Assembly: GCA_020628305.1 (NCBI GenBank)
Contig: JAHDFH010000001.1
Coordinates: 65,306-129,305 of the forward strand
Reading direction: 5' to 3'
DNA from: Acidimicrobiales bacterium
GTDB taxonomy: Bacteria; Actinomycetota; Acidimicrobiia; Acidimicrobiales; SZUA-35
DNA length: 64,000 bases
This document shows positions 14,979 to 45,314 of the stretch, in pieces. Numbering within the stretch: the first letter of the stretch is position 1; every line of letters starts with the position of its first letter. The notes below the pieces were generated by a model. That model saw only the letters and a program-made list of their open reading frames with translations, was not told where the DNA came from and did not search any database. Position numbers and translations under genes: made by a program.

Positions 14979-15395
14979 ATGGCCGTTACGGATGCTAACC
15001 CTCCACTGCCGGAATTTAGGGACGACTATCTCCTGGTTGAGGTAGATAAGGACTACCTATCTAAAGCGGTTAAGCCCAAGCAGTTCATTCATATCGATCA
15101 GTCGGAGTGTATTGCCTGTGAGGGTTGCGTGGATATTTGCCCTTGGAAGTGTATTCACATGCAGCCAGTTGACGTCATAGAGGAAAGCTACGGCGTTGCT
15201 AAACCAGGAGAAGACCCTGGTGATGCGTTTATATTCACTATTGACGATGATGTCTGCACGCGTTGTGCGCTCTGTGTCGATCGTTGTCCCACGGGCGTGA
15301 TTATTTTAGGAAAGATCGAAGAACCTAAGGGTGGGGGAGATTTGCATCAGAGAACTACCTCTTATGGTTACGGATACGGAATGCGGTTGACGTAA
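14979..15395 (+). CDS. 2x[4Fe-4S] ferredoxin-fold protein
   Basis: Two complete CxxCxxCxxxCP motifs: CIACEGCVDICP and CTRCALCVDRCP. No signal peptide or TM helix. Confidence 0.85.
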   Translation: MAVTDANPPLPEFRDDYLLVEVDKDYLSKAVKPKQFIHIDQSECIACEGCVDICPWKCIHMQPVDVIEESYGVAKPGEDPGDAFIFTIDDDVCTRCALCVDRCPTGVIILGKIEEPKGGGDLHQRTTSYGYGYGMRLT

Positions 15396-15437
15396 AAGCG
15401 TCACATTAGGAAACACACAAAGTAGGATTTGACTTAC

Positions 15438-16229
15438 ATGGCCAGTCCACAAGTTCAAAAAAAATCAATAGCGGAGAGAGTGAGCGACAGCGTAGGCTCT
15501 TTGAGTGATAACGTGCAAGGCTCTCAGGCCTGGAACTCTATTTTTCGTCCAGGCTCAGTCTTCCGCAAAGGCTACACAGACAGTCCTAGAAACCGTTCGT
15601 ATGTGATTATGAACTCTGTTTTGTATCACCTGCATCCGGTGAAGGTGAAAAGGCACGCTGTCAAAGTGAGCTACACGCTATGTCTTGGTGGGTTGAGTTT
15701 TTTCCTCTTCATCTTGTTGACTATCACCGGCATCTTCCTGATGTTCTTCTATACCCCGGATGCCGCTAGAGCTTACGACGACACCTACACAATTGTCTCT
15801 GAAACGTCTCTCGGTTTGATGTTGCGAAATATGCACCGCTGGGGAGCCCATTTAATGGTTATTTCAGTTTTCTTGCATATGGCTCGCGTTTTCTATCATG
15901 GAGCTTACAAAGCTCCTCGAGAGTTTAACTGGGTGATTGGTGTCATTCTCCTCACTTTGACTCTCTTGCTATCTTTCACCGGGTATCTGCTTCCGTGGGA
16001 TCAGCTTGCGCTTTGGGCAGTAACTGTGGGCACTAACATGATGGGCTTTACTCCAGTCATTGGTGACCAGGTTAAGTTCGTTCTTCTCGGCGGTTCGGTT
16101 ATTGGCACAGAGACGTTGCTGCGTTGGTATGTGCTGCACGTACTGTTTGTACCGTTCGTGACGGTAATTTTCATGGCAATTCACTTCTGGCGTGTACGTA
16201 AAGATGGCGGCATCTCAGGACCGCTATAG
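15438..16229 (+). CDS. cytochrome b, N-terminal four-helix (b6-like) subunit
   Basis: His pairs in RNMHRWGAHLM and YVLHV...AIHFWRV. Also FTGYLLPWDQLALWA. Ends after helix D, as in PetB. ATG 15438 is preferred over TTG 15429. Confidence 0.9.
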   Translation: MASPQVQKKSIAERVSDSVGSLSDNVQGSQAWNSIFRPGSVFRKGYTDSPRNRSYVIMNSVLYHLHPVKVKRHAVKVSYTLCLGGLSFFLFILLTITGIFLMFFYTPDAARAYDDTYTIVSETSLGLMLRNMHRWGAHLMVISVFLHMARVFYHGAYKAPREFNWVIGVILLTLTLLLSFTGYLLPWDQLALWAVTVGTNMMGFTPVIGDQVKFVLLGGSVIGTETLLRWYVLHVLFVPFVTVIFMAIHFWRVRKDGGISGPL

Positions 16230-16236
16230 GAGAACA

Positions 16237-16980
16237 ATGGCCGACATTCCAGATCATCTCAAACAGCGTGCCAAAGCCGCTAAAGAAAAAGCAGAAGCGG
16301 CCAAGTCTGATTCTGGCGGTTCTGCCTCTGCGTCTGGTATCCCAGAACATTTACTGAAGCGCTCAAAAGCAGCGAAGTCAAAAGGTGATTCTCCATCTTC
16401 TGATTCTGTAGTTGCCTCAGCTGGCACCGCTCCGGCTGCAGGTGGAGGCGACACCGGTGCTGCCGCAATCCAAACCGGACCCGGTGGCCATACCCAAAGA
16501 CTTCTTACAGTTGTCAAAGCAGGGTCAATTCAAGACATCAAGTCCAAACCACTAGATAAAGTCCACACCTGGCCGCATCTCATAGTGGTGGAATTTGGGG
16601 CAATGCTCGCAGTTACTGCGTTTCTGATCGTGTTCTCAATCTTCGTCAATGCTCCACTCCAACGTCTTGCTGATGTGAACGCTACGCCTAACCCTTCGAA
16701 AGCGCCGTGGTACTTTCTAGGACTTCAAGAGTTGCTCACGCTATTCCACCCTATGGTCGCTGGGGTAACCATTCCGGGAGTTGGACTTTTCGCTTTAATG
16801 CTTGCCCCATATATTGATAAAACAGTTAGCAACAAGCCTGAAGATCGTAAGTTCGCAATTTCCGTATTTACTTTCTTCATGATGTTCTGGGCAATTCTTT
16901 CAATAATCGGCTCTTTCTTTAGAGGCCCCGGTTTCAACTTTGTGTTCCCCTGGGAAGAAGGGATCTTCTTCGAACTCTAA
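16237..16980 (+). CDS. cytochrome b C-terminal part / subunit-IV-like protein with a long N-terminal tail
   Basis: ATG 16237 has AGGAG upstream. KAPWYFLGLQELL (variant of the PEWYF motif) and 3 TM helices. The N-terminal 110 aa are low-complexity and carry two IP(D/E)HL..R.KAAK motifs. Confidence 0.85.
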   Translation: MADIPDHLKQRAKAAKEKAEAAKSDSGGSASASGIPEHLLKRSKAAKSKGDSPSSDSVVASAGTAPAAGGGDTGAAAIQTGPGGHTQRLLTVVKAGSIQDIKSKPLDKVHTWPHLIVVEFGAMLAVTAFLIVFSIFVNAPLQRLADVNATPNPSKAPWYFLGLQELLTLFHPMVAGVTIPGVGLFALMLAPYIDKTVSNKPEDRKFAISVFTFFMMFWAILSIIGSFFRGPGFNFVFPWEEGIFFEL

Positions 16981-16993
16981 GAGGGTGTGAATT

Positions 16994-17842
16994 ATGGTAG
17001 TTTTTTATGCAGTAGGCGCAATAGTTCTTCTGGCTGTGGTTGCAGCTGTGGTTTTGTTTAGAAGGCAAGATCGCGAATTGGCCACCGGTTCTTTGACTGG
17101 AGTAGAGGCTGATCGAAAGAGAATAATTAGAGACAAAGGCGATCTCGAAGGTAAAGACTTTGAAACGCAGGCTCTCGAAAAACGCTCTCAAGAGCTAGCG
17201 CCAGCAGAGCCAGATGGGCCAGTTATCATCCCACCAATGGATCCCGACCAACTTGGTGAGGCAAGACGAGCCTTCCTCAACCGCAGCATCATTGGGGCTG
17301 CAAGCTTAGGGCTAGCGATGCTCGGTGGGGCTATTTTGAAAACCCTTTGGCCGAGTGCAAGTGGTGGATTCGGCGACAAAATTGTCGTTGGTAACGTTGA
17401 CTCGATCAAAGAATCAATTCGCGACAGTGGAGGCTTCTTCTACTTTCCGCTTGGCCGGATGTGGATTACCGAGTATCCGACTTCAGCTGTTGTTAAGGCA
17501 GAAACAAGTTATGGTTTCTACCCTCAGGTAGAGCAGGGGCTAAAGGCTGGAGTGGTTGCTCTATTCCAAACTTGCCCTCACCTGGGCTGCCGAGTTCCTG
17601 AATGTGAAACATCTCAGTGGTTCGAGTGTCCATGTCACGGTTCGCAATACAACAGAGTTGGAGAGAAAAAGGGTGGTCCTGCTCCTCGAGGCATGGATCG
17701 CTTTCCCATGGAAGTTTCCTCTGATGGAGTGCTTACGGTTGATACTGGAACAATCATTCAGGGTCCACCTATTGGCGTAAACACAACTGGTCAAGAAGCG
17801 GAAGGACCAAATTGTCTTTCTGATGGTGGAGGTGAGCACTGA
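16994..17842 (+). CDS. Rieske [2Fe-2S] subunit
   Basis: CPHLGCRV and CPCHGSQY boxes. N-terminal TM helix. Confidence 0.9.
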   Translation: MVVFYAVGAIVLLAVVAAVVLFRRQDRELATGSLTGVEADRKRIIRDKGDLEGKDFETQALEKRSQELAPAEPDGPVIIPPMDPDQLGEARRAFLNRSIIGAASLGLAMLGGAILKTLWPSASGGFGDKIVVGNVDSIKESIRDSGGFFYFPLGRMWITEYPTSAVVKAETSYGFYPQVEQGLKAGVVALFQTCPHLGCRVPECETSQWFECPCHGSQYNRVGEKKGGPAPRGMDRFPMEVSSDGVLTVDTGTIIQGPPIGVNTTGQEAEGPNCLSDGGGEH

Positions 17843-19509
17843 TGGAAGCGCTTTTACTCCAAACAAACTACAGATCAATCGGCATTGCCTTTGCCCTGAT
17901 AACTTTCATTGGCTTTGTTATCATCTTCTTCGCCAACAGTCGTAAAGCTCGTAAAGAAATCGGTAACGAGATTGAGCTTGCTGCCAACCGCAAAGAATAT
18001 TACGACGACGAGGATATGGAAGGCCTGCGCCTTGATCGTTCTTTGTCCTTCGCTTTAGTGTCGTTGTTGTTCATTGCTCTGTCATTTGGTTTCTACATGA
18101 TTGCCGAGCCAGGCCGCCAAGAAGGTGCGGTTCAAAACAAGATCGAGACTTTCCAAAGGCGCGGTGAGGACACCTACGTTAATGGAGCACAATGCGTCAA
18201 CTGTCACGCAGCTGATGGCTCTGGTGGTGGGGCAGCGTATGTGCTCCAAGACGCTGATGGTCAATTTATAGCAAACGCTAACTGGATGGCTCCTGCGTTG
18301 AATAACGTGTTGCTTCGCTACTCAGAAGAAGAGATCACTTACATCCTTAACTTTGGTCGGAATGGCTCGCCGATGGCCGCATGGGGCACGCCTGGTGGAG
18401 GGCCGTTAACCTCTCAAGCTGTACAGAACGTTATTGAGTATTTGAAAACCCTTCAAGTCCAAAGCATCGAACCAACCGACATTGCAGCTGCCGGCAATGA
18501 GAACCCCGATAACAGCGAAAACGATTTGGACGACGAAGAATCTCAAAAGGCTCAGGAAGAAGCCGACCGTCTAACAGCTTCGGTTAGGGCTGAGGTTGAT
18601 AGGTCGCTCGCCGATGGTGAGTTTGCGACGGTCGGGGAGGCCGTGTTTAACCTGGGACTGTACTCAGGGTTTGGAGCGGGATCCTATTCTTGTGCCCGCT
18701 GTCATACATCGGGCTGGTCGCTCGGAATTGATGCGTCCCCGAATGTTCTAGATGAAGGTGTGGCCGCCTGCGGTGGTGGGACGACCGGTATTGGGTTCAA
18801 CTTGTGTGGCGGTTCGATCGAAACTCGCTTCCCCAATGACACTTGGAAGATGCCTGACGGCTCTTGGATGCCGCCCGAAGGCTTAACTAATGACGATGGC
18901 GAATCGATAGTTCTTACAATGGATGGTACTGAAATTGTTCTTGATGAACGAGGCCGCCCAGTCGATGCAGATGGTAACCCGTATCTTGTCTTAACTGATG
19001 GTTTGATTGATGCCCGCTCTGCGGCCCCTGCGGTGGATGAACCAGCTGAAGAGGATGAAATCATCGATGATGAGACTACCGCTGCGGTTGCTGCAGAAGT
19101 CGAAACAGGATCAGCTTTGCTCGGATTGGCTGGGGATTTAGCACAGTGTGACTTTGTTTCAGAGCTGTATACGCCCGCTGACGGAGCAACATATCCAGTG
19201 GATCCAGATTCTGAACCTGTGGTCGGTGAAGACGGTGAGCTCTCTTCACCTGAAGCTTTGAATCCTGATGATTTTTCAGAGCCTGTTTACACTTTGGATT
19301 CTGGACGTCTGGCAAGCGGTTGTGAAATTATCGAGATGCCGGAAAGAACTAGCGACGCCCACTATGACTTCATCTACGATGGGGCTAACGCCGGGCAAGG
19401 CTACGGAAATGGCGGCATGTCGAGCGCTGGTATGATGCCTGGTTTTGGCAAAATGCTACCTCCTGAGTACATCCAAGCAGTAGTCGACTATGAGCGAGGT
19501 CTTGAGTAA
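17842..19509 (+). CDS. membrane-anchored diheme c-type cytochrome (555 aa)
   Basis: Heme motifs CVNCH and CARCH. N-terminal TM helices. Long acidic insertions. The start overlaps the Rieske stop (TGATG). Confidence 0.85.
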   Translation: MEALLLQTNYRSIGIAFALITFIGFVIIFFANSRKARKEIGNEIELAANRKEYYDDEDMEGLRLDRSLSFALVSLLFIALSFGFYMIAEPGRQEGAVQNKIETFQRRGEDTYVNGAQCVNCHAADGSGGGAAYVLQDADGQFIANANWMAPALNNVLLRYSEEEITYILNFGRNGSPMAAWGTPGGGPLTSQAVQNVIEYLKTLQVQSIEPTDIAAAGNENPDNSENDLDDEESQKAQEEADRLTASVRAEVDRSLADGEFATVGEAVFNLGLYSGFGAGSYSCARCHTSGWSLGIDASPNVLDEGVAACGGGTTGIGFNLCGGSIETRFPNDTWKMPDGSWMPPEGLTNDDGESIVLTMDGTEIVLDERGRPVDADGNPYLVLTDGLIDARSAAPAVDEPAEEDEIIDDETTAAVAAEVETGSALLGLAGDLAQCDFVSELYTPADGATYPVDPDSEPVVGEDGELSSPEALNPDDFSEPVYTLDSGRLASGCEIIEMPERTSDAHYDFIYDGANAGQGYGNGGMSSAGMMPGFGKMLPPEYIQAVVDYERGLE

Positions 19510-20408
19510 TGGGTAACACTTTCCTGGCCTTCATCGATGGAGTTGATTTTAATATCTTCTTCAGAGGGCTCTTGTCCACTTTGACGATGTTCGTTGTTCT
19601 GTGCGGTGCTACTTACATGATCATCGCTACCAACGTTGGCGTTCGTAAAGGCATGTTAGTAGCATCAGCTGGATTCTTTGGCTGGATGTTTCTGATGGGA
19701 ATAATATGGACCATTTATGGAGCGGGTTGGGTTGGAGCGACACCAACGTGGGAACTGGTTGAGATCAACCGAGGAGATTTAAGTGTCGCAGAGACTGAGG
19801 AATCTAACGCCCTTGCTGGAGTCGACCTCTCAGAGCTAGTAACGGAGCAAGACCCAGATCTTGCCCAGGCTCAGGCTTTAGAGATCTCTAGAACTCAAGA
19901 TCTATCTGGCTGGGATTTTCTGCCAGCCTCTAACTCCACTCGAGGCGAAGCCCAGTCATCAGTCGATGAATACCTTCTCGAAACAGGTGCCTACGGTTCA
20001 ACTGAGGAATACGTAGCGCTTCAGTTCGGGGCATTCACAACTGGCGGAAAGCCAAAACTGAAAGACGACCCAACTGCAGTTGATAGATTCGTGCATTTCT
20101 TCGACGAGACATTTGCTAATCCGCTTCATAAACAAGAGCTAATAATGATCCAGGTTCAGGGAGCCAAGGATGTGTTCTCTTTCACAGGTGGGACCCCTCC
20201 TGTGGCTGAGATTGACTCCAATAAGGATGTAGTCAGCGTCATCATGGAACGTAATCGTGGTGGCCCAATTCCATCACTAATTAGTGGCTTGAGATTTACG
20301 CCGTTCATGTTCACTGTGGTCAATGGATTGATCTTTCTGATCTGTTCATGGGCGTTGCACAAACGAGATAAGAGAGAAGCGTTGGCCTTGGCGGGAGCGG
20401 CTGCTTGA
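19509..20408 (+). CDS. hypothetical membrane protein linking the bc cluster to nuoA
   Basis: 299 aa with 2 N-terminal TM helices, 1 C-terminal TM helix and a soluble middle. TAATG overlap with the cytochrome c gene and TGATG overlap with nuoA. Confidence 0.6.
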   Translation: MGNTFLAFIDGVDFNIFFRGLLSTLTMFVVLCGATYMIIATNVGVRKGMLVASAGFFGWMFLMGIIWTIYGAGWVGATPTWELVEINRGDLSVAETEESNALAGVDLSELVTEQDPDLAQAQALEISRTQDLSGWDFLPASNSTRGEAQSSVDEYLLETGAYGSTEEYVALQFGAFTTGGKPKLKDDPTAVDRFVHFFDETFANPLHKQELIMIQVQGAKDVFSFTGGTPPVAEIDSNKDVVSVIMERNRGGPIPSLISGLRFTPFMFTVVNGLIFLICSWALHKRDKREALALAGAAA

Positions 20409-20884
20409 TGGAACAGTACCTTCCAATCTTTGCTCTGTTGGTCTTAGCAGTGCTGTTCGCTGCGATCTCGTTTATTGCATCCCGTTTGCTAAGCCCGAGC
20501 CTTTCCACTGTTGAGAAATCAGCGCCGTATGAATGTGGCATAATCCCTAACCAGGAACCATCGGAGCGGTTTCCAGTCAAGTTCTATCTTGTTGCAATGC
20601 TCTTTGTAATATTCGACATTGAGATTATTTTCTTGTACCCATGGGCCGTTGAGTATATGAACTTGGGTGCCGCAGGCTATTTCGCGATTCTGTTGTTCTC
20701 CGCACTAGTTTTCGAATCGTTTATTTATCTGATTTCAAAAGGCGCCCTCGATTGGGGTCCTTTGCAACTCAACCGTAATCAGTCGGCGATAGCTGGAAAG
20801 CCAAACGCTTTTTCTACTGCCACTGCTGGTGTCCGCATCGTTGGCACTGAAGGACGTTTCGAACACGCGAAAGAAGTAGCTTAG
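20408..20884 (+). CDS. nuoA: NADH-quinone oxidoreductase subunit A
   Basis: YECGI...FPVKFYLVAMLFVIFDIEIIFLYPWA. C-terminal extension of about 40 aa. Confidence 0.9.
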   Translation: MEQYLPIFALLVLAVLFAAISFIASRLLSPSLSTVEKSAPYECGIIPNQEPSERFPVKFYLVAMLFVIFDIEIIFLYPWAVEYMNLGAAGYFAILLFSALVFESFIYLISKGALDWGPLQLNRNQSAIAGKPNAFSTATAGVRIVGTEGRFEHAKEVA

Positions 20885-21460
20885 ATGGGCATCTCGGACA
20901 TTCAGAGCCAGGGGATAGAAGGCCTTGACCATAACTTCTTGACAGCGCCCCTTGAAAAGCTTGTTAACTGGTCACGAGCAAGGTCTTCGTGGCCAGCAAC
21001 TTTCGGCCTCGCTTGTTGCGCTATCGAAATGATGGCTACTGGTGGTTCTCATTACGATCTTGCTCGTTTGGGCATGGAAGTATTTAGAGCTTCTCCAAGA
21101 CAGGCAGATGTGATGATTGTGGCGGGACGAGTTAGCCAGAAAATGGCCCCGGTCCTTAGACAGATTTATGACCAGATGATGGAACCTAAGTGGGTTATTT
21201 CCATGGGAGTTTGCGCATCCTCTGGAGGAATGTTCAACAACTATGCAATTGTTCAGGGTGTTGATCAGATTGTGCCGGTCGATGTGTATGCGCCTGGTTG
21301 TCCTCCAGGCCCAGAGACACTGCTTCATGCAATCACAACGCTTCACACTCAAATCGAAAATGGTGAACTTCTCAAACGGCGAGAGGCTAACGGTGGTGCC
21401 GGAGCCGGCATGTACATAGAACAACTAGACGGACAAACGCTAAGCATCGGAGCGGCATAA
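20885..21460 (+). CDS. nuoB: NADH-quinone oxidoreductase subunit B
   Basis: N2-cluster Cys motifs: [19 protein letters not shown] and PGCPP. Confidence 0.95.
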
Positions 21461-21464
21461 GTTC

Positions 21465-21543
21465 GGTAGGGGCGGTCCTATCCGGCTTTTGCTGTCATCC
21501 CTCGGCATCAAGCCTCAGGGAATGACTTGGTGGTCAGGTGTGG
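21465..21543 (+). repeat. bipartite intergenic repeat (module A + module B), copy 1
   Basis: GGTAGGGGCGGTCCTATCCGGCTTTT followed by GTCATCCCTCGGCATCAAGCCTCAGGGAATGACTTGGTGGTCAGGTGTGG. The B half is nearly identical to 38681-38734 and the A half to 39513-39539. Confidence 0.8.
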
Positions 21544-22352
21544 CGTACCCATCCTTCAGGGGAACCCAAATTAGGCATGGCAGTTTCGCCCTGAGCGTCA
21601 GGGGAAGACCGATAGCAGCGCACTCGGTTTACCTTCTCCTTGACACCTGAAAGCCAGAGAGATTCTTTGACTACTAAGCGGCGTTCAGCAATTTCCTCCT
21701 TCAAGCGCCCAGCAGCACCGTGTTCGAGGTTCCAGTTCTCCGTAGCATCTCCGAGTACCACCTCAGCTAGCCGCGTTATTTGAGCGTAACGTTCCATACA
21801 GACGGTGGCGATTTCGCTGAACAATACGTGATCTGTGGTTGTAAAGGCGATGTAGCACAGAAGCTCAGCAACTAGATCATCTAGCCTCAATTTGCTGGTG
21901 GTATCCAGCTCAGGTCGAAGAGCAACTTCCAGCTCGACTTTCGGGAAGGCCTCAGCTAGATCGACCAAAATAGTCACCCACCAAGTTGAGCCTTCGCTCG
22001 AAAAGGCATAGTTCTGGACGAGTGAGTCAAGATCAAGACCTCTTTTGAGGCGAGGGGAGAAGAGCGTGAAGCCTAGGCCCGAGGCTTGGAGAGAGTTGAG
22101 TGTTAGTTGTCTTGATTTATCGTCAAGGTTCAGAAGCGATACATTGTGTTTCAGCATTGCCCTGGATGTTCTTTCCAACCGTTCGAAACCCAGGAGGGCT
22201 AGGACGAGGTCCTCATACGGAATTCTGCCATGTCTGAGTAGCTTGAGGAATTCATCACGGTCGTCGTTAAAGAGCCTAAGATGGTCCTCAATTCCCCTCC
22301 ATGCAGCAATGGTGATTATCGGTTCCGCCATTAGTCGAAGTCTAGACAGCAA
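21534..22352 (-). CDS. hypothetical protein (272 aa), antisense to the nuo operon
   Basis: Intact ORF with no recognisable motif. The last approximately 10 nt of the ORF, including its stop codon, lie within repeat copy 21465-21543. Confidence 0.55.
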   Translation of the reverse strand: MLSRLRLMAEPIITIAAWRGIEDHLRLFNDDRDEFLKLLRHGRIPYEDLVLALLGFERLERTSRAMLKHNVSLLNLDDKSRQLTLNSLQASGLGFTLFSPRLKRGLDLDSLVQNYAFSSEGSTWWVTILVDLAEAFPKVELEVALRPELDTTSKLRLDDLVAELLCYIAFTTTDHVLFSEIATVCMERYAQITRLAEVVLGDATENWNLEHGAAGRLKEEIAERRLVVKESLWLSGVKEKVNRVRCYRSSPDAQGETAMPNLGSPEGWVRHT

Positions 22353-22450
22353 ACATCGAAAAAGTACCTATATCAGTGGTCAGAAATGTTGGTCAGGGTA
22401 GAGTTGAGCTCTGTGATCCGCCAAGCTAGTTTGTCAGTCCTGGAGAATCG

Positions 22451-22990
22451 ATGAGCGATTCAATTCCAGAGGTTGAAGATGTCGAAATTGAGATCCATGG
22501 AAGCAATTCTGAGGTGCTATTTGGCTGCCCCGTAAGCTACTCGATGGGTCAGACTGTTATCCACCCAAGTAGGAGTCACTGGCTTCAGGTCGCTACTAAC
22601 TTGCTTAACGACGGCTATAACATGTGTGTCGATTTGACTGCCGTTGACTACTTATCCAATGACACTAGGGAACTGCCAGAAGGCATAGTTCTTGAACGGT
22701 TCGAGGTTGTAGCTTCGTTTGTATCCCATGAAAGAGCTGAGCGCCTTAGGGCTCGAGTGCAAATTTCTGGATCTGATCCGACTATCGATTCCCTCTACGA
22801 GATTTATCCAGGAACAGACTTTCTAGAACGAGAAGTTTATGACATGTTTGGCATCACTTTCGAAGGCCATCCTGATTTGTCCCGAATCTTGATGCCAGAA
22901 GAGTGGCAGGGGCATCCACTGCGCAAAGACTTTGATGTTGGGGCTATCCCAGTGCAGTTTAAGTATCCACAGGGTGAGAAATATGATTGA
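22451..22990 (+). CDS. nuoC: NADH-quinone oxidoreductase subunit C
   Basis: EREVYDMFGITFEGHPDLSRILMPEEWQGHPLRKDF. Confidence 0.9.
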   Translation: MSDSIPEVEDVEIEIHGSNSEVLFGCPVSYSMGQTVIHPSRSHWLQVATNLLNDGYNMCVDLTAVDYLSNDTRELPEGIVLERFEVVASFVSHERAERLRARVQISGSDPTIDSLYEIYPGTDFLEREVYDMFGITFEGHPDLSRILMPEEWQGHPLRKDFDVGAIPVQFKYPQGEKYD

Positions 22991-24272
22991 TTCACCTGAG
23001 AAGCAGGTAGTTACTTCCCAGCTTGGGAAGCTTCCGAAGCTAGATTCTGTTCTTCGTATGTCTGAGGTGCAGGCGGCTGAAGCTGGCTCTTCTGCTTATC
23101 AAAACGATGACGAGACCATGATTATCAACATGGGGCCATCACACCCCTCAACGCACGGTGTGCTTCGTTTAATGCTCGAGCTTAAGGGTGAAATGGTGCT
23201 TCGGTCCAAGCCAATTATGGGGTACCTCCATACTGGCATGGAAAAAACCGGCGAAGAGCTTACCTACTTGCAGGGTGCAACAAATGTCACCCGCATGGAC
23301 TACGCCTCGCCTCTCTTCAATGAGCTAGCGTTTTCTCTGGCCGTTGAAAAACTTGTCGGGATGGAAATCCCAGAGCGAGCTACCTGGATTCGCATGCTGA
23401 TGTGTGAGCTCAACCGCATCTCCTCTCATTTGTTGTTTATGGCAACGAATGGCATGGATTTGGGTGCTGTGTCAATGATGATCTACGGCTGGCGAGAACG
23501 AGAGCAAGTTCTTCGATTCTTCCAAAAAGTTACAGGCCTGAGAATGAATCACAACTACATCCGCCCAGGGGGAGTGGCAGCCGATTTGCCACCGGGTTGG
23601 GAAGAAGATGTCAACTCCTTGATGGAGATGCTTCCTCCAAGGCTCGAAGAGTATGACACGCTAATGACGAACCAGCCGATTTGGCGGGAACGCCTTCAAG
23701 GTGTTGGGTTCTTAAGCAAAGAAGAGGCACTGGCTTTGTCGATTACTGGGCCACTCTTACGCTCTGCTGGGGTTGCCTGGGATTTGCGCAGCACAATGCC
23801 TTATCTTGCATATGACCAAGTTGATTTCGATGTTTTGGTTGGTAGTTACGGAGATTGCTTTGACCGGTACTCCATTCGCCTCAACGAAATTCGTGAATCG
23901 ATGAAAATCGTAAAGCAGATCGTCGAGAAAATGCCGGAGGGTGACTACCGTGTTCAGGATAAAAAGATCACGCCGCCACCTCGAGCTCGGATTGATGAGT
24001 CGATGGAAGCTTTGATCCACCATTTTAAGATCTTTACAGAGGGCTACAAAGTTCCGGCAGGCGAAGTATATGTGGCAGTAGAGTCTCCACGAGGCGAGCT
24101 GGGCTGCTACATAGTTTCAGATGGCTCATCAAAGCCTTACCGCATGCATATTCGTGGCCCTAGCTTTGTCAACCTTCAAGTGCTTCCACATATGTTGGCC
24201 AACTCTCAGATTGCTGATGCAGTAGCCATTCTTTCAAGTGTTGATCCAATTCTTGGCGAGGTAGATAGATGA
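22983..24272 (+). CDS. nuoD: NADH-quinone oxidoreductase subunit D
   Basis: NMGPSHPSTHGVLRL and C-terminal SVDPILGEVDR. ATG 22983 overlaps the nuoC stop. The track ORF's earlier start lies inside nuoC. Confidence 0.95.
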   Translation: MIDSPEKQVVTSQLGKLPKLDSVLRMSEVQAAEAGSSAYQNDDETMIINMGPSHPSTHGVLRLMLELKGEMVLRSKPIMGYLHTGMEKTGEELTYLQGATNVTRMDYASPLFNELAFSLAVEKLVGMEIPERATWIRMLMCELNRISSHLLFMATNGMDLGAVSMMIYGWREREQVLRFFQKVTGLRMNHNYIRPGGVAADLPPGWEEDVNSLMEMLPPRLEEYDTLMTNQPIWRERLQGVGFLSKEEALALSITGPLLRSAGVAWDLRSTMPYLAYDQVDFDVLVGSYGDCFDRYSIRLNEIRESMKIVKQIVEKMPEGDYRVQDKKITPPPRARIDESMEALIHHFKIFTEGYKVPAGEVYVAVESPRGELGCYIVSDGSSKPYRMHIRGPSFVNLQVLPHMLANSQIADAVAILSSVDPILGEVDR

Positions 24273-24907
24273 GTCGTTTAACTTCTGCTGCCGTGATTGA
24301 AGCTGAGGAGATTATTGCCCGCTATCCGAGGAAGAAATCGGCCCTCATTCCTTTGCTGCATTTGGCTCAGGCTCAGGATGGTTACGTCGCTGACGACGCA
24401 ATGGAACACATTGCGGAGTTGCTGGATATCACACCAGTCGAAGTTCTTGGGACGTGCTCATTCTATGAAATGTTTAAGAGAGAGCCTGTTGGTAAGTATC
24501 TAGTAAACATCTGCACCAATATTTCGTGCCAGCTGATGGGTGGCGAAGAGCTCCTCCACCATGCAGAAAAGACGCTAGGGATCAAGTCTGGTGGAACAAC
24601 TGAAGACGGCATGTTTACCATTGAAGATGTTGAATGTATTGCAGCTTGTACCGAAGCTCCCTGTATGCAGGTGAACTATCGCTATGCCGGACGTTTGGAC
24701 GAGGTCCGTTTCGACAAGATAGTTTCTGAGATAAGAGAAGGCAAGCTTGCCATACCAGCCCACGGCAATCTTGGTGATGTGAAACAGCACATCCCACAAG
24801 AACGCGAGTCTGGCATCAAGCCTCCAGAACAAACTGAAGCTCCTGCCTGGTTTGTTCGCCGCATGTCAGAATCTGAGAGTGAGGTAACTATCAATGCCAA
24901 CAAATAA
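24269..24907 (+). CDS. nuoE: NADH-quinone oxidoreductase subunit E
   Basis: 2Fe-2S Cys pattern: GTCSFYEMF, CTNISCQLMG, CIAACTEAPCMQVN. Confidence 0.9.
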   Translation: MSRLTSAAVIEAEEIIARYPRKKSALIPLLHLAQAQDGYVADDAMEHIAELLDITPVEVLGTCSFYEMFKREPVGKYLVNICTNISCQLMGGEELLHHAEKTLGIKSGGTTEDGMFTIEDVECIAACTEAPCMQVNYRYAGRLDEVRFDKIVSEIREGKLAIPAHGNLGDVKQHIPQERESGIKPPEQTEAPAWFVRRMSESESEVTINANK

Positions 24908-26285
24908 CTACCTCCCTCACCTTGATGGCTATGTGGACAACGAAGGTCCAAAGATTGTCACCTCAAGATTTAACGATCCAAACAACTACAAGATTTCTAA
25001 CTACAAAGCCTCCGGCGGTTACCAAGCTCTTGAATCAGCACTCGACATATCACCGGATGCTGTAGCCGCTGAGATCAAAGATGCGATTCTCCTCGGTCGT
25101 GGGGGTGCGGGCTTTCCTGCTGGCCTTAAGTGGGGCTTCCTGCCCGATGTCTACCCGCGTTACCTCGTGGTCAATGGTGACGAATCTGAACCTGGAACCT
25201 ACAAAGATAGACTCTTGATGGAGCATGATCCTCACCAACTTATTGAGGGTTGCCTGATTACTTGCTATGCGCTGGGTATTGAGACTTGCTTTCTTTATGT
25301 GAGGGGCGAGATGGCTCTTGCTCAAGAAAGGCTTGCCCAAGCCCTAAACGATGCCTACGCTCAAGGCTATATTGGCAAAAACATCTATGGAACTGACGTT
25401 GGAATCGACATCGTTCTGCACTGGGGAGCTGGAGCTTACATAGTTGGCGAAGAAACAGCACTGATTGAATCACTCGAAGGCAATCGTGGGATGCCTCGCC
25501 TTAAGCCCCCTTTCTTTCCAGCGGTGAAGGGCGTCTACATGAAGCCAACCATTGTTAACAATGTTGAGACGCTTTCAAACGTGCCTTGGATTGTTACTAA
25601 CGGTGCTGATAAGTACAAGGAGTTTGGTTCGGAGGCGTCTCCTGGTTCGCGCATGTTGGCCATCTCAGGTCATGTGAATAGGCCTGGCGTGTACGAAGTG
25701 GAACAGGGCGAAGTGACATTTAGGGAGCTTTTCTACGGTGATAACTACTGTCAGGGCATCCGAAACGATGGAGATGTCAAGATGTTCATCCCCGGCGGAG
25801 GCTCAGCCCCATGGTTCTTTGAAGAACAACTCGATCTGCCTTTAGAAGCTAAAGCTGTTGGAGCGGCAGGTTCTATGCTTGGGTCGGGAGCCATTGTGGT
25901 GATGGATCAAACAACTGACGCGGTTAAGGCCTGTTTGCGAGTAGTTCGTTTCTTTGCAAGAGAATCGTGTGGTAAGTGCACTCCCTGTCGTGAAGGCACT
26001 TCTTGGGAAGAGAAGATTTTGCAGCGCATTCTAGATGGTGCTGGCCGCCCAGAAGATCTCGATTTGCTACTTGATGTTGGTTCACAAATTTCTCCAGGAG
26101 ATTACCCGAAAGCGGCTTGGGAAGCTGAAGGTCTTGAAGCGGTTCCGTTCCCACCCAAGCAAACCACCATCTGTCCGTTGGGGCCATCTTCTGTAGCTCC
26201 AATCACTTCAGCCTTACGCCGCTTCCGGCCAGAGTTTGAAGCTAAGATTGCCGCCGGACGCACAACAGTTGGGGCGAGTTCATGA
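24894..26285 (+). CDS. nuoF: NADH-quinone oxidoreductase subunit F
   Basis: GRGGAGFPAGLKW, NGDESEPGTYKDR (FMN/NADH site) and ESCGKCTPCREG (N3 cluster). Confidence 0.95.
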   Translation: MPTNNYLPHLDGYVDNEGPKIVTSRFNDPNNYKISNYKASGGYQALESALDISPDAVAAEIKDAILLGRGGAGFPAGLKWGFLPDVYPRYLVVNGDESEPGTYKDRLLMEHDPHQLIEGCLITCYALGIETCFLYVRGEMALAQERLAQALNDAYAQGYIGKNIYGTDVGIDIVLHWGAGAYIVGEETALIESLEGNRGMPRLKPPFFPAVKGVYMKPTIVNNVETLSNVPWIVTNGADKYKEFGSEASPGSRMLAISGHVNRPGVYEVEQGEVTFRELFYGDNYCQGIRNDGDVKMFIPGGGSAPWFFEEQLDLPLEAKAVGAAGSMLGSGAIVVMDQTTDAVKACLRVVRFFARESCGKCTPCREGTSWEEKILQRILDGAGRPEDLDLLLDVGSQISPGDYPKAAWEAEGLEAVPFPPKQTTICPLGPSSVAPITSALRRFRPEFEAKIAAGRTTVGASS

Positions 26286-28699
26286 CAGCAACTGAATCCA
26301 GCGCAGTAAAGGCTACGACAGGCGTTCCATTTACGCTTAACGGTCAAGAACTTCATGCTGAAGAGGGTGAACTGCTGATTGAAGCTTGCGACAAGAATGG
26401 CGTGCACATCCCAAGGTTCTGCTACCACAAGCGTATGGAATCGGTTGGCATGTGTCGCATGTGTATTGTCGAAGTCGACACTGGCAGGGGTCCAGCTTTA
26501 CAGCCAAGCTGCATGCTGACAGTTACCCCCGAGATGAAAGTCGAAACCGAGTCTGAAGCAACTAAAGACGCCCAAGATGGGGTGCTTGAATTACTCCTGG
26601 CGAATCATCCTCTTGATTGCCCTGTCTGCGATAAGGGTGGTGAGTGCCCGCTGCAAGATAACGCTTTTGCGTACGGGCCGGGTGAGTCTCGCTTTGTTGA
26701 AGAGAAAAGGCATTTTGAGAAGCCAATTCCAATTTCTGATCTGGTCAAACTAGATCGTGAGCGTTGCATACTTTGTGATCGCTGCACCCGCTTCGCCTCA
26801 GATGTCGCTGGTGACTCCCTTATCCACTTTATTGATCGCGGCTCATCCACTCAGGTAAATACGTTTCCAGATCATCCGTTTGCGTCTTACTACAGCGGCA
26901 ACACAGTTCAGATCTGTCCCGTTGGGGCATTAACAGCTGCTCCCTACAGGTTTAAAGCACGCCCTTGGGATTTAACAGGATCGCCGTCTACTGCAACGGT
27001 TGATTCCAGCGGTTCACGAGTTCTTGTGCAGTCTTCTCAAGACAAGGTGGTTCGTATCCAAGGCGTTGACTCAGATGCAGTGAACTGGGGTTGGCTCAGC
27101 GACAAAGAACGCTTTATTTATGAGGCAAATGTTTCTGAGGATCGTATTTTGCAGCCAATGCGACGAGCTGTAGATGGATCCTTAGAGCCAATGCGCTGGA
27201 ACGATGCGCTTAAGCAAACTTCTGAAGCGCTTGGTAAGAAAGCTGCTGCAATTGGTGGTGCTCGCTTAACGCTTGAAGCGCAACACGTTTGGCAAAAAGT
27301 TTTAGCCGATGAGTTCTCGGTTGTGTCTTATGATGCTTCATTGGGCGACGATGTTTCGGCAGACGTAGTTGATTCACTCCCTAAGGCAACTTATGACTGG
27401 GCTTTCAACGCCGGATCTGTAGTGGTCGTGGTTGGGCAAGATTTGAAAGAGATCTTGCCGAGCATCTATCTGAGGCTCCGAGGTGTGGTTAAGGACGGAT
27501 CAGTTGAACTCGTGGAGTTCAATTACAAGTCCGGCAGCCTGGCGAAATTGGCTCGTAAGTCTGTTCAAAGCAGACCAGGTGAGTTAGCCAAAGATGTTAA
27601 GCAAGCCTTTACCGCAACTCCAGGCGAGCGCTCCAGTGATTTGAATTGTCTGGTAGACACCGACAAGCCATTGACTGTAATTTTCAGCCGACCAAACGTT
27701 GCTGAATCAGCTGACTATTTAACTGAGGCTTTGCAAGTGATTCAGTCGGTAAGACCTGACGCTCATTTCTTGCCGGCGTTCAGACGAGGTAACACTGTAG
27801 GCGCTCAACTAGCCGGCTTGACCCCAGGAGTCAGAGAGGTCGCTACTGAAGATGAGATCATTGTCGAGCAAGTTGCAGTAGTTGGACGCCCAACCGCAGA
27901 GATCCTCCAAGAAGCTGCTAACGGCGAGGTAGAAACTTTATTGCTGCTTGGCGCTGACCCTATTTCTGACTTCCCTGACAAAGCGTTGGCAGAAGCCGCA
28001 CTCGATGCTGTGAATACAGTCATTGCCGTTGACTGTTTCGAAAATCCATCCGTTGCATCGGCGAACGTTATATTGCCTGTTGCCATGTATGGAGAAGTTA
28101 ACGGTCACTTTGTTAACTCAGAAGGTCGACTTTCCCCGCTTGGAGCTAGGGTCACAGCCCCTGGATTGGTTCGCTCAGATTTGGAGATAGCTGCTTCATT
28201 AGCCAAGACAGCGCCGCAGTCAAACTCTGACGCACAAAGCTCTTTAGAAACTAGCCACATGCTTGGCTCAGAGCCAATTGCGTGGGATTTACTTGAACTC
28301 TCGAGCGAAGGCGCTCGCATCAAGACGCCAACCAAGCCAATTCAGCGTGTCAAGGCCGACGTTCCAACTGTAGCTGATGGCCTGCGACTGGTGATTGGCA
28401 ATAAGCTCTGGGATCAGGGAACTATCGTCGAAAACTCTCGGACCCTCGCCGGTCTTTGTGAGACTTTCAAAGTACGAATCAATCCTGCTGATGCAGATCG
28501 GTTTGGTTTGACAGCCGGTGCTGAGATTGTAGTTAAGAACGCTAAGGCCACAGCCTCTGTTCCGTTTATCACAGATTCATCAGTTGCTGAAGGTGTTCTC
28601 TGGGCCCCAGCGAATGTTAGAGGGTTTGATCCACGCTCGTTTGTCACGTTCTCCGAAAGTGTTTGTTATGTCGAGGTAAGTGCTGGAGAGCAGAAATGA
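26282..28699 (+). CDS. nuoG: NADH-quinone oxidoreductase subunit G
   Basis: N-terminal 2Fe-2S/4Fe-4S Cys clusters: CYHKRMESVGMCRMC, HPLDCPVCDKGGECPLQ, CILCDRCTRF. Molybdopterin-like C-terminal domain. Confidence 0.9.
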   Translation: MTATESSAVKATTGVPFTLNGQELHAEEGELLIEACDKNGVHIPRFCYHKRMESVGMCRMCIVEVDTGRGPALQPSCMLTVTPEMKVETESEATKDAQDGVLELLLANHPLDCPVCDKGGECPLQDNAFAYGPGESRFVEEKRHFEKPIPISDLVKLDRERCILCDRCTRFASDVAGDSLIHFIDRGSSTQVNTFPDHPFASYYSGNTVQICPVGALTAAPYRFKARPWDLTGSPSTATVDSSGSRVLVQSSQDKVVRIQGVDSDAVNWGWLSDKERFIYEANVSEDRILQPMRRAVDGSLEPMRWNDALKQTSEALGKKAAAIGGARLTLEAQHVWQKVLADEFSVVSYDASLGDDVSADVVDSLPKATYDWAFNAGSVVVVVGQDLKEILPSIYLRLRGVVKDGSVELVEFNYKSGSLAKLARKSVQSRPGELAKDVKQAFTATPGERSSDLNCLVDTDKPLTVIFSRPNVAESADYLTEALQVIQSVRPDAHFLPAFRRGNTVGAQLAGLTPGVREVATEDEIIVEQVAVVGRPTAEILQEAANGEVETLLLLGADPISDFPDKALAEAALDAVNTVIAVDCFENPSVASANVILPVAMYGEVNGHFVNSEGRLSPLGARVTAPGLVRSDLEIAASLAKTAPQSNSDAQSSLETSHMLGSEPIAWDLLELSSEGARIKTPTKPIQRVKADVPTVADGLRLVIGNKLWDQGTIVENSRTLAGLCETFKVRINPADADRFGLTAGAEIVVKNAKATASVPFITDSSVAEGVLWAPANVRGFDPRSFVTFSESVCYVEVSAGEQK

Positions 28700-29985
28700 T
28701 TGGCGCTCAACCATACCTAGCAGATGGCGTCGACCTTGGTGACATCGTGCTAGCCGTAAGCAAGGCCACCATTGCGTTTGTAGTTCTTTTAGTATCAGTG
28801 ATGTTGATGGTCTGGTTTGAGCGTAAGGTTGTGAGTCGCTTACAAAACCGTATTGGACCTAATGTTGCTGGACCGTTCGGAATCTTTCAAACACTTGCTG
28901 ATGGTATAAAGCTGTTCTTTAAAGAAGATCTCATTCCGGAAAGATCAGACCCACTTATTTTTAAACTTGCACCGTACTTGTCGCTGGTTCCCGCGTTTTT
29001 AACTTTCACAATTGTTCCTATCGCTGGGGATTTCAACGCAGATAACAATGGATCAGTAACCATCTTTGGGCGTGAAACTTTTCTTCAAGTAGCTGACGCT
29101 CCGGTTGGTGTGTTGCTGTTTCTTGCAATGAGTTCAGTTGGAGTTTACGGAATTATGCTTGCTGGTTGGGCTTCAGGTTCTAAATATCCTCTCATAGGAT
29201 CCGTCAGAGCTACAGCACAAGCCATCAGTTACGAAGCTGCACTTGGTCTATCTTTAGTTTCGGTCATCATTTTGTCGGGCTCATTGAGTACTAACGCTAT
29301 TGTTGATGTCCAAGCCGGCGCAGGCGCGGGATTCTTACCAAATTGGCACCTGATCACATCTGCATTCGTGCCATTTATAGTTTTTGTTATTGCAGGAACT
29401 GCAGAACTGAATCGTCCACCGTTCGACTTAGTCGAAGCAGAGCAAGAACTCGTCGGAGGTTTCCACACAGAGTACTCATCCATCCGTTTTGCACTTTTCT
29501 TCTTAGCTGAGTTCATGAATACAGTCACCATGTCAGCGATTATTGTGACTCTATTCCTGGGCGGACCAGCTGGCCCTAACCTTGGACTGCTGCCAGGCTG
29601 GGCTTGGGGCTTTGTCTGGTTCTTTGCGAAGCTTCTTGTATTCTTGTTTATGTTCGTATGGTTCAGAGCAACGCTTCCTCGTCTGCGATACGACCAGCTA
29701 ATGAACCTGGGCTGGAAGGTGTTGATTCCCGTATCGCTTGGCTGGCTATTGCTGCTATCTGGCCTACGCTTAGCTTCAGAAAATTCTGCTGGAGTAACTG
29801 AACTTCGTTTTATAGACTCTGACTCATTCAACACGGTGGTGTTCGCTGGCTTAGCAGTCTCAATTTTCTTGGTTGCCACTTTGTTGCTTTCAACGGCATT
29901 GCGAGACTCTAAAAAGAACAGACTCAAAGAACATGGCCTTGTAATGGTCGATGGCTCAGAGCCAATCAACACGGGAGCTTCGTAA
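28696..29985 (+). CDS. nuoH: NADH-quinone oxidoreductase subunit H (with a C-terminal extension)
   Basis: RKVVSRLQNRIGPN, GWASGSKYPLIGSVRA, ELNRPPFDLVEAEQELVGGFHTEYS. ATG 28696 overlaps the nuoG stop. Confidence 0.95.
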   Translation: MIGAQPYLADGVDLGDIVLAVSKATIAFVVLLVSVMLMVWFERKVVSRLQNRIGPNVAGPFGIFQTLADGIKLFFKEDLIPERSDPLIFKLAPYLSLVPAFLTFTIVPIAGDFNADNNGSVTIFGRETFLQVADAPVGVLLFLAMSSVGVYGIMLAGWASGSKYPLIGSVRATAQAISYEAALGLSLVSVIILSGSLSTNAIVDVQAGAGAGFLPNWHLITSAFVPFIVFVIAGTAELNRPPFDLVEAEQELVGGFHTEYSSIRFALFFLAEFMNTVTMSAIIVTLFLGGPAGPNLGLLPGWAWGFVWFFAKLLVFLFMFVWFRATLPRLRYDQLMNLGWKVLIPVSLGWLLLLSGLRLASENSAGVTELRFIDSDSFNTVVFAGLAVSIFLVATLLLSTALRDSKKNRLKEHGLVMVDGSEPINTGAS

Positions 29986-30620
29986 TGGGTTACCTAGCTG
30001 GATTTCCAATCACTCTTAAGAAATGGTTTGAAGGTGTTACAACCAAAAACTATCGTGCTGGTAAAGGTGGCAAATCAGATGTGAAGGCTCCCAAGCCCGA
30101 TCGTCTACATGGTCGACATGTGTTGAACCGCTACGAAGATGGCTTAGAGAAATGTATTGGCTGCGAACTTTGTGCGGGTGTTTGCCCAGCAAAGTGTATA
30201 TATGTTCGAGGTGCCGACAACAATCCCACAGATCCAACATCTCCTGGTGAGCGTTTTGGATTTGTATACGAGATTAACTATTTGCGTTGTATTCACTGCG
30301 ACTTGTGCGTTGAAGCCTGCCCAACTGAGGCGATCACAGAATCAAAGCTGTTCGAATTTTCCTTCGAAGATCGCAAGAGTGCGATTTATACGAAGAACGA
30401 GCTTCTTGTAGACGAAGACGGCAAACCTCAGCAGCTCCCTTGGGAAGATTGGCGTGAAGGCGAAGACAAAGCAACATCTGGTTGGATGAGAGCAACCGCT
30501 CCATCGGGGGATTCCAATTATGTTGGCAAGGTTGCATGGTCGGGAGAGCTTGGCTACGGCGTGCGTCAACCTGAGTCAGTTGAGCTGACCATTAAGCCAA
30601 AGTCAGGAGACAGTAAATGA
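29985..30620 (+). CDS. nuoI: NADH-quinone oxidoreductase subunit I
   Basis: CIGCELCAGVCP and CIHCDLCVEACP. Confidence 0.9.
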   Translation: MGYLAGFPITLKKWFEGVTTKNYRAGKGGKSDVKAPKPDRLHGRHVLNRYEDGLEKCIGCELCAGVCPAKCIYVRGADNNPTDPTSPGERFGFVYEINYLRCIHCDLCVEACPTEAITESKLFEFSFEDRKSAIYTKNELLVDEDGKPQQLPWEDWREGEDKATSGWMRATAPSGDSNYVGKVAWSGELGYGVRQPESVELTIKPKSGDSK

Positions 30621-31180: not shown

Positions 31181-31485
31181 TGGAACTGACCGAAACATGG
31201 TTTCTGCTGCTGAGCGCAGCGCTTTTCTCAATTGGACTGGCAGGCATCCTGATCCGCAAGAATCCTTTGATTATGTTCATGTGTGCAGAACTTATGCTTA
31301 ACGCAGTCAATATCGCATTCATAGCATTCTCGGAGCGGCTGCAAGATATAGCTGGGCAGTCTGCGATTCTTTTTATTCTGGTCGTTGCCGCCGCCGAAGT
31401 AGTAATCGGTCTGTCGCTAGTAGTTTTGTTGCAGCGACGCAACAGAGACCTGGTAGTCGATGATCTATCGGAGCTGAGGGGGTAA
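31180..31485 (+). CDS. nuoK: NADH-quinone oxidoreductase subunit K
   Basis: 101 aa with 3 TM helices. MCAELMLNAVN...AAAEVVIGLSLVV. Confidence 0.9.
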   Translation: MELTETWFLLLSAALFSIGLAGILIRKNPLIMFMCAELMLNAVNIAFIAFSERLQDIAGQSAILFILVVAAAEVVIGLSLVVLLQRRNRDLVVDDLSELRG

Positions 31486-31488
31486 GAG

Positions 31489-45293: not shown

Positions 45294-45314
45294 CGAACTC
45301 TGGGTTGATGGTGC

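What the first reader, a model, noticed from the sequence alone, without database searches (positions are those of the whole stretch)
21461..22450. nuo operon split between nuoB and nuoC by an antisense orphan gene plus a repeat element
What the sequence shows:
- nuoB ends at 21460 and nuoC starts at 22451.
- All other nuo junctions in this operon are overlaps or gaps of 3 nt or less.
- The 990-nt gap contains the bipartite repeat (21465-21543) and a 272-aa ORF on the opposite strand (21534-22352) with no recognisable motif.
- The last approximately 10 nt of that ORF, including its stop codon, lie within the repeat.

Inference:
- This looks like an insertion into an otherwise compact operon, with the repeat marking one boundary.
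- It separates nuoAB, which are coupled to the bc cluster, from nuoC-N. The latter would then need their own promoter within 22353-22450.
Basis: partly seen in the sequence, partly recalled or inferred. Interest (0 to 1): 0.55.

Follow-up and report, generated by a model that had tools for sequence, protein, structure and literature searches.

The report
Orphan gene inserted inside complex I operon
In one uncultured marine-type Acidimicrobiia species, a 1-kb insert sits where nuoB and nuoC normally overlap; it carries a real but completely unrecognisable gene on the opposite strand plus small hairpin repeats, differs sharply between two strains, and is an unusual but not unprecedented kind of accessory-gene insertion.

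Summary
nuoB ends at 21460 and nuoC starts at 22451. Every other nuo junction is an overlap or a gap of 3 nt or less. The 990-nt gap holds two juxtaposed small repeats and an antisense ORF, best read as 265 aa (21534-22331).

The insertion reading is supported. About 45 Acidimicrobiia loci have nuoB and nuoC contiguous, with no homologue of the ORF and none of the repeats. These include the closest NuoC relatives in 5.8 billion protein clusters (70-73% identity) and relatives with the same bc-nuo synteny.

The ORF is a real gene: dN/dS is 0.17 against its only known homologue. That homologue lies at the same position next to nuoC in a second assembly of the same species. There the flanks are 99.4-100% identical, but the gene body is only 67% identical, with a sharp breakpoint at 22255/22256. 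The sequence beyond repeat A also differs. This marks a strain-variable islet.

The protein's function is unknown. All family, defence, phage, plasmid and PDB searches were empty, and AlphaFold confidence was below 40.

Hairpin repeat A, which has a U-rich tail, sits 5 nt after the nuoB stop. Weak promoter-like motifs lie in the 119-nt region between the ORF and nuoC. Together these fit a split into two transcription units, but this is untested. Interest is moderate to low.

The parts
20885..21460 (+). nuoB, with its native C-terminus retained. It is the last gene of the translationally coupled bc-complex-nuoAB block.
   Evidence: Pfam Oxidored_q6, E=5.7e-28. The C-terminal tail aligns with relatives.
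21464..21490 (+). Repeat family A. It is an imperfect 7-8 bp hairpin (GGTAGGG-GCGG-TCCTATCC) followed by GGCTTTT, a terminator-like module, and starts 5 nt after the nuoB stop.
   Evidence: Copies at 39513-39539 and 61697-61716(-), 3 against 0 expected. Hairpin fold. The same element follows stop codons in L001 and, twice, in L082.
21495..21542 (.). Repeat family B. It is a conserved hairpin with a GGTGGTCAGGTGTG tail. The tail overlaps the last 9 nt and the stop codon of the antisense ORF.
   Evidence: Family D1/D10. Seven-copy alignment with a conserved 10-pair stem, one pair compensated. Minus-strand fold z=-2.9. Absent from the allele in L001.
21534..22331 (-). Orphan protein-coding gene, 265 aa, ATG start. 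It has only one known homologue anywhere.
   Evidence: Only P0001 (self) and P0002 found in 5.8 billion clusters and in the 1.84 billion-representative HMMER search. dN/dS 0.17, and mismatches by codon position 71/47/116. All family searches empty.
22255..22256 (.). Breakpoint between the divergent body of the gene (67% nt identity to the other strain) and the near-identical right flank.
   Evidence: Last mismatch at 22255, next at 22748. P of about 7e-8 for zero synonymous changes in the first 25 codons, given pS=0.65 elsewhere.
22332..22450 (.). 119-nt divergent control region. Candidate leaderless -10 for the ORF: TAGACT at 22344-22339(-), 7 nt before the ATG. Candidate nuoC promoter: TGGTCA at 22377-22382, 16-nt spacer, TAGAGT at 22399-22404. 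Ribosome-binding site: GGAGA at 22442-22446.
   Evidence: Read from the sequence. 100% identical in L001. Inference only; the consensus scan did not call the nuoC candidate. No Rfam match.
22451..22990 (+). nuoC, first gene of the nuoC-N block (22451-36613).
   Evidence: Pfam Complex1_30kDa, E=1.4e-38. The start codon context ATGAGCGA is shared with relatives.

Best explanation
A segment of about 1 kb was inserted at the ancestral overlapping nuoB-stop/nuoC-start (ATGA/TGATG) in one species-level lineage of Acidimicrobiia.

What the insert contains:
- One real, selectively maintained gene on the opposite strand. It encodes a 265-aa soluble protein with no detectable relatives.
- Lineage-specific small hairpin repeats, of REP-like or terminator-like type.

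How it most likely works (inferred, not shown):
- Transcription of the bc-complex-nuoAB unit and transcription of the orphan gene converge on hairpins A and B. These act as a two-way terminator or insulator.
- The orphan gene and nuoC-N are then transcribed divergently from the 119-nt region 22332-22450. The orphan gene is probably leaderless.
- The formerly single, translationally coupled bc-nuo unit would thus become two units.

Strain variation (shown with the caveat of short contigs): the locus behaves as a small strain-variable islet. A second assembly of the same species has near-identical nuoB and nuoC, but a 33%-diverged allele of the gene, no B repeat at the gene's end, and different sequence beyond repeat A. 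This points to allele or cassette exchange by homologous recombination, anchored in the conserved flanks and in the gene's first 25 codons.

Function (inferred, low confidence): the deep allelic divergence under purifying selection suggests a strain-specific accessory role of the conflict or niche type, rather than a role in respiration.
For: Insertion:
- nuoB and nuoC are contiguous in all relatives, with no ORF homologue.
- Repeats A and B are absent from the relatives scanned: L083, L084, L086, L087, L189 and L190.

Real gene:
- There are 265 codons with no stop or frameshift in either allele.
- dN/dS is 0.17, and third-position mismatches are enriched. All other frames are full of stops.

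Orphan status: only two family members were found in the word-indexed search and in an exhaustive HMMER profile search.

Strain variability:
- L001 is 100% identical over 22256-22450 and 99.4% identical in nuoC, against 67% in the gene body.
- L082 is 99.3-100% identical through nuoA and nuoB. It then has two A repeats, followed by unrelated, repeat-rich sequence.

Terminator-like role of repeat A: hairpin plus CTTTT, placed 0-5 nt after the stop codons of nuoB, the SHMT-like gene (minus strand), the L001 surface-protein gene and L082 nuoB.

Promoter and ribosome-binding candidates were read from the sequence.

Composition: the gene's codon usage and GC3 lie within 1.2-1.5 SD of host genes, so it is not recent foreign DNA of different composition.
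Against: - There are no expression data. The promoter candidates are weak (8 of 12), and the consensus scan called neither them nor a terminator at repeat A.
- Strain variability rests on two contigs of 1.5-1.7 kb from one metagenome-assembled genome. Their divergent parts begin at or near a dispersed repeat, so assembly chimerism is not excluded.
- The nearest insert-less relatives are distant (NuoC 70-73% or less; synonymous sites saturated). The time of insertion is therefore poorly bounded.
- No transposase, integrase, terminal inverted repeats or clear target-site duplication explain how the segment arrived.
- The proposed conflict or niche function has no direct support. PADLOC found nothing.
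Confidence: 0.7

Rival explanations
1. The locus is not strain-variable. L001 and L082 are mis-assembled short contigs, joined across the dispersed repeat A or across a conserved stretch of a paralogous or orthologous gene from another population. The species would then have one fixed insert.
For: Both contigs are only 1.5-1.7 kb and come from one MAG. Their non-homologous parts begin at repeat A, a multi-copy element. No third strain is available.
Against: - The repeat shared at the junctions is only about 18-20 nt, shorter than the usual assembly k-mers.
- On its right side, L001 switches from 67% to 100% identity inside the gene, at 22255/22256, not at a repeat.
- A chimera there would still need another genome that carries a diverged copy sharing an exact k-mer with the window's gene. 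No such genome exists in 15 billion proteins.
Confidence: 0.15
2. The ORF is a lineage-specific accessory or assembly factor of complex I or of the bc-nuo supercluster. It would be comparable to the extra reading frames interspersed in the Paracoccus and Rhodobacter nqo/nuo clusters (my own knowledge, not verified here).
For: Its position is inside the nuo cluster. It is under purifying selection. It shares a fully conserved control region with nuoC.
Against: - It lies on the opposite strand.
- It is absent from every relative that has the same bc-nuo synteny.
- It is 33% diverged between strains whose Nuo proteins are nearly identical. A partner of conserved subunits would be expected to co-vary little.
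- The protein has no membrane segment or cofactor motif recognisable by Pfam.
Confidence: 0.07
3. The segment is a mobile element (IS, MITE-borne cargo or homing-type selfish gene), and the ORF is its mobility enzyme.
For: - The insertion sits precisely at a gene junction without damaging either gene.
- Small repeats lie at one end.
- An 11-nt imperfect direct repeat, TGGTGGTCAGG/TGTTGGTCAGG, brackets the ORF at 21528 and 22387.
Against: - There is no transposase, integrase, HUH, HNH, GIY-YIG or LAGLIDADG match.
- No terminal inverted repeats flank the segment.
- The ORF is single-copy in the window, and only two copies are known in all databases. This is unlike any successful mobile element.
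- An 8-11 nt direct repeat within 1 kb is expected by chance.
- There is no hit in phage or plasmid collections.
Confidence: 0.05
4. The ORF is a non-functional chance ORF or a decaying remnant, and the gap is simply non-coding spacer with repeats.
For: No homologues with a known function. AlphaFold confidence is very low.
Against: Two alleles with pS=0.65 keep an intact 265-codon frame. dN/dS is 0.17, and substitutions show a third-position excess.
Confidence: 0.03

Closest known systems
Flexible genomic islands or islets of marine bacterioplankton: strain-variable segments between conserved core genes, exchanged by homologous recombination in the flanks
   Same: - Near-identical core flanks (nuoB, nuoC) bracket a segment whose content and sequence differ between two conspecific assemblies.
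- The segment is absent from related species.
- A cell-surface (LAxTG-like anchored) protein gene lies next to the allele in the second strain.
- Assemblies fragment at the locus.
   Different: - It is tiny: one gene in the window.
- It sits inside an essential, normally translationally coupled respiratory operon, not next to a tRNA gene or between operons.
- Only two strains are known.
- One recombination breakpoint lies inside the variable gene itself.
Unidentified reading frames interspersed in the nqo/nuo clusters of Paracoccus denitrificans and Rhodobacter capsulatus (own knowledge, not verified here)
   Same: Non-nuo ORFs of unknown function lie between the structural genes of complex I.
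   Different: Those ORFs are co-oriented and co-transcribed with the nuo genes and are conserved among related species. This one is antisense, species-restricted and strain-variable.
REP/BIME-type repeated extragenic palindromes and intrinsic terminators
   Same: - Families A and B are short imperfect palindromes and multi-copy. Family C is also short, palindromic and multi-copy.
- They are almost always intergenic and often lie directly after stop codons or between convergent genes.
- Family A has a T-rich tail.
   Different: - Their sequences are unrelated to any Rfam family.
- No RAYT transposase is seen in the window.
- One family C copy lies in frame inside nuoL.
- The T-tract is short (4 T).

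Membership tests
Insertion sequence / transposon | Encodes a recognisable transposase or recombinase | tested here: not met
   Pfam, NCBIfam and PHROGs gave no hit for either allele.
Insertion sequence / transposon | Terminal inverted repeats and multiple copies | tested here: not met
   No flanking inverted repeats. No second copy in the window. Only two copies in the databases.
Flexible genomic islet | Variable content between conspecific strains, with conserved flanks | tested here: met
   Flanks are 99.3-100% identical, against 67% in the gene body and unrelated sequence beyond repeat A. Caveat: this rests on two short contigs from one MAG.
Flexible genomic islet | Absent at the homologous site in related species | tested here: met
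   nuoB and nuoC are contiguous in all relatives examined.
Complex I accessory gene (nqo/nuo-cluster URF type) | Co-oriented with the nuo genes and conserved in relatives that have the same cluster | tested here: not met
   The gene is on the opposite strand and absent from syntenic relatives.
Known anti-phage defence systems | Match to a PADLOC model | tested here: not met
   No family matched at E up to 10.
Intrinsic terminator (repeat A) | GC-rich hairpin directly followed by a U-tract, placed after a stop codon | tested here: inconclusive
   A 7-8 bp hairpin plus GGCUUUU lies 5 nt after the nuoB stop. It fails the scan's criterion of 5 T in 8. No transcript data.
REP-like extragenic palindromes (repeats A, B) | Short imperfect palindromes, multi-copy, extragenic | tested here: met
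   Family A has 3 copies and family B 6 copies in 64 kb, all intergenic. The B stem is conserved, with one compensated pair.
REP-like extragenic palindromes (repeats A, B) | Associated RAYT (REP-associated tyrosine transposase) in the genome | not testable with these tools
   Only 64 kb of the genome is available.

The most novel reading that the evidence does not exclude
The orphan gene founds an undescribed single-gene conflict system (defence, immunity or toxin-like). Its alleles would be kept diverse in the population and swapped by recombination, with the essential and highly conserved nuoB and nuoC genes serving as homology anchors. An essential respiratory operon would then serve as a hotspot for exchanging a hypervariable gene.
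Probability: 0.12. Interest if true: 0.6.

Novelty: new member of a known kind. Interest (0 to 1): 0.33.

Why it matters
The nuo operon is among the most conserved and compact gene clusters in bacteria. In this clade it is also fused to the cytochrome bc genes. A lineage where it is cleanly cut by an antisense, strain-variable gene is a natural experiment. It shows how much transcriptional and translational coupling complex I biogenesis needs.

The inserted gene belongs to a family with only two known members among about 15 billion proteins, yet it is clearly under selection. That makes it a clean example of a functional ORFan.

Beyond that, the finding is a local curiosity in an uncultured organism, with no function assigned.

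Tried and rejected
Searches with the ORF that found nothing:
- Family searches against Pfam, NCBIfam, PADLOC and PHROGs.
- PDB sequence profile search.
- tblastn against phages and plasmids.
- Related-locus scans of JGI metagenomes and IMG/VR.

Spurious hit: the exhaustive HMMER search gave one extra hit, P0003 (E=3e-4). It is a PATR-repeat, PEP-CTERM surface protein. It matches only a short 'VTLGDATNN' unit that recurs in the protein, so I rejected it.

Structure prediction: two AlphaFold runs gave pLDDT 39 and 36, with contradictory secondary structure in the N-terminal 100 residues. I ran no fold search because the matches would be meaningless.

Metagenome scan with the repeat-A core: it returned about 100 unrelated contigs, mostly one unrelated repeat in the Ga01263xx samples. 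None resembled the window.

Search with the partial surface protein of L001: no hits.

Exact-protein look-ups of the window's NuoD and NuoE, meant to find more strains: nothing on record.

GC content and codon usage do not set the insert apart from host genes.

Rx4H (HEPN-like) motifs at residues 12-17 and 57-62: considered and dismissed, because about this many are expected by chance.

Integron attC-like reading of the hairpins: rejected, because the core sites do not fit GTTRRRY.

Literature searches: nothing specific turned up.

Full report
**1. The observation**

nuoA (20405/20408-20884), nuoB (20885-21460) and nuoC (22451-22990) are identified by Pfam: Oxidored_q4, Oxidored_q6 and Complex1_30kDa. 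The gap between nuoB and nuoC is 990 nt.

All other junctions of the 14-gene cluster (20405-36613) are overlaps or gaps of 3 nt or less. nuoA itself overlaps the last gene of an upstream ferredoxin-cytochrome b-Rieske-cytochrome c block (TGATG).

The gap holds a minus-strand ORF at 21534-22352 (272 aa from TTG). The deposited protein and its only homologue both start at the ATG at 22331, giving 265 aa.

The repeat at 21465-21543 is real but is two elements, not one:
- Family A (21464-21490) recurs at 39513 and, inverted, at 61697. That is 3 hits against 0 in shuffles.
- Family B (about 21495-21542) recurs at 38675, 44608, 45139, 45312 and 61643.
- The ORF's last 9 nt and stop codon lie in the B tail.

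**2. Is it an insertion?**

A scan of 185,579 species-representative genomes with NuoC returned 80 loci. In each of the roughly 37 Acidimicrobiia/Actinomycetota loci that include both genes, nuoB abuts nuoC, and none has an ORF homologue.

Loci whose NuoB falls in the same 90% cluster (L083-L088) have the same bc-nuo synteny, and nuoB overlaps nuoC by 4 nt (ATGA).

A search of 5.8 billion protein clusters with NuoC showed that the nearest relatives are only 70-73% identical. The two I inspected (L189, L190) again have the same synteny, with a TGATG overlap.

The window's NuoB tail (..LSIGAA*) is homologous to the tails in relatives (..LVKIGKRA*), and nuoC begins with the same ATGAGCGA. So the extra DNA sits exactly at the ancestral stop/start overlap and damages neither gene. 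Repeats A, B and C are absent from the close relatives scanned: L083, L084, L086, L087, L189 and L190.

The insertion reading is therefore supported. One caveat applies: the nearest insert-less genomes are distant, with synonymous sites saturated.

**3. Is the ORF a gene?**

The word-indexed search and an exhaustive HMMER profile search of 1.84 billion cluster representatives found only one relative, P0002 (66% amino-acid identity). A third hit is a repeat artefact.

The two alleles compare as follows:
- Both keep an intact 265-codon frame.
- pS is 0.65, pN is 0.22, and dN/dS is about 0.17.
- Mismatches by codon position are 71/47/116.
- All other frames carry 7-17 stops.

This is a selected protein-coding gene, and a true ORFan.

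**4. The second strain**

P0002 lies on a 1673-bp contig (L001) of GCA_020628595.1. Compared with the window:
- L001 is 99.4% identical over nuoC and 100% identical over the 119-nt intergenic region and the first 76 nt of the ORF.
- From 22255 leftwards it drops abruptly to 67% identity.
- Zero synonymous changes in the first 25 codons has P of about 7e-8, given the rest of the gene.

Left of the ORF', L001 has no B repeat and no nuoB. Instead it carries an A repeat overlapping the stop codon of an acidic protein. That protein has an IAFTG, hydrophobic, RRRR C-terminus, which I read as sortase-signal-like.

The same MAG has a 1513-bp contig (L082) with nuoA and nuoB 99.3-99.8% identical to the window. 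These are followed by two tandem A repeats and then unrelated sequence made of further small repeats, D4-like and B.

The simplest reading is a strain-variable islet between constant nuoB and nuoC. One recombination breakpoint lies in the ORF's 5' end and the other at repeat A. Chimeric assembly cannot be excluded, but it is disfavoured: the shared repeat is only about 18-20 nt, and the right-hand breakpoint is not at a repeat.

**5. How it probably works (inferred)**

Repeat A is a 7-8 bp hairpin followed by GGCTTTT. It sits 0-5 nt after stop codons in four of its five known contexts. Repeat B is a conserved hairpin directly after the ORF's stop. Together they lie between the convergent nuoB and ORF, the position of a two-way terminator.

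In the 119-nt divergent region:
- TAGACT lies 7 nt before the ORF's ATG, with no Shine-Dalgarno sequence. This fits a leaderless mRNA, which I know to be common in Actinobacteria.
- TGGTCA, a 16-nt spacer and TAGAGT, then GGAGA 5 nt before the nuoC ATG, is a weak candidate promoter and ribosome-binding site for nuoC-N.
- The consensus scan did not call it.

No Rfam family matches the region. None of this has been tested by expression data.

**6. Function of the protein**

Function is unknown. Pfam, NCBIfam, PADLOC, PHROGs, PDB, phage and plasmid searches were all empty. AlphaFold gave pLDDT 39 and 36. Codon usage and GC3 are within 1.2-1.5 SD of host genes.

The alleles are deeply diverged yet under purifying selection, and they sit between identical flanks. 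This pattern is seen at loci under frequency-dependent or strain-specific selection. I therefore favour, with low confidence, an accessory conflict or niche role over a respiratory one.

**7. Comparison with what is known, and verdict**

The feature is best filed as a very small flexible genomic islet: an ORFan plus REP-like or terminator-like repeats. What is unusual is its location inside the bc-nuo supercluster and its antisense orientation.

- It is not an IS or transposon. It has no transposase, no terminal inverted repeats and is single-copy.
- It is not a known defence system.
- It is not like the co-oriented URFs of alphaproteobacterial nqo clusters.

The kind of event is known, while the gene family is new. 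Interest is moderate to low.

Noticed in passing
window 33079-33107: A copy of hairpin repeat family C (GGGACATTGGGGACGGGGTCATTTGTCCC) lies in frame inside the nuoL coding sequence, encoding ..YGTLGTGSFVPAS... The other C copies are intergenic: 36615 just after nuoN, 38093, 57791 and 58882 (inverted).
   Followed up: partly
window 45386-55902: A second nuo-like cluster has 11 genes and lacks E/F/G homologues. Its nuoB- and nuoL-like genes share 74-85% nt stretches with the first cluster.
   Followed up: no
window 44600-45400: An 800-nt non-coding, repeat-dense stretch lies upstream of the second nuo-like cluster. It holds three B-type hairpins and two 97%-identical 59-nt D4 repeats spaced 505 nt apart. 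The tail of L082, downstream of nuoB in the other strain, is built from the same repeat types.
   Followed up: partly
window 38675-40950: A DUF4886 gene (38778-39476, minus strand) is bracketed by a B repeat with the same GGTGGTCAGGTGTG tail (38675-38734) and an A repeat (39513-39539). An N6/N4 DNA methyltransferase gene follows directly (39604-40950). This may be another small accessory insertion.
   Followed up: partly
window 63187-63265 (-): A ZMP/ZTP riboswitch (Rfam RF01750, 53 bits) overlaps the 5' end of the GTG-started SHMT-like ORF 61720-63240 (506 aa; the Pfam SHMT match begins at residue 182), so the real start is probably downstream and the riboswitch would then be its leader. Adjacent B and inverted A repeats follow the gene's 3' end.
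   Followed up: no
window 14979-20884; loci L083-L088, L189, L190: The ferredoxin, split cytochrome b, Rieske, dihaem/trihaem cytochrome c, unknown membrane protein and nuoA genes form one conserved, translationally coupled supercluster. It joins complex III-like and complex I genes across this Acidimicrobiia clade.
   Followed up: partly
L001 1297-1671 (-): A partial gene encodes a highly acidic protein ending in IAFTGATTPLF, a hydrophobic stretch, then RRRRQPVL (LAxTG-like sortase signal). It lies next to the ORF' allele in the second strain. It has no homologue in the protein database.
   Followed up: partly
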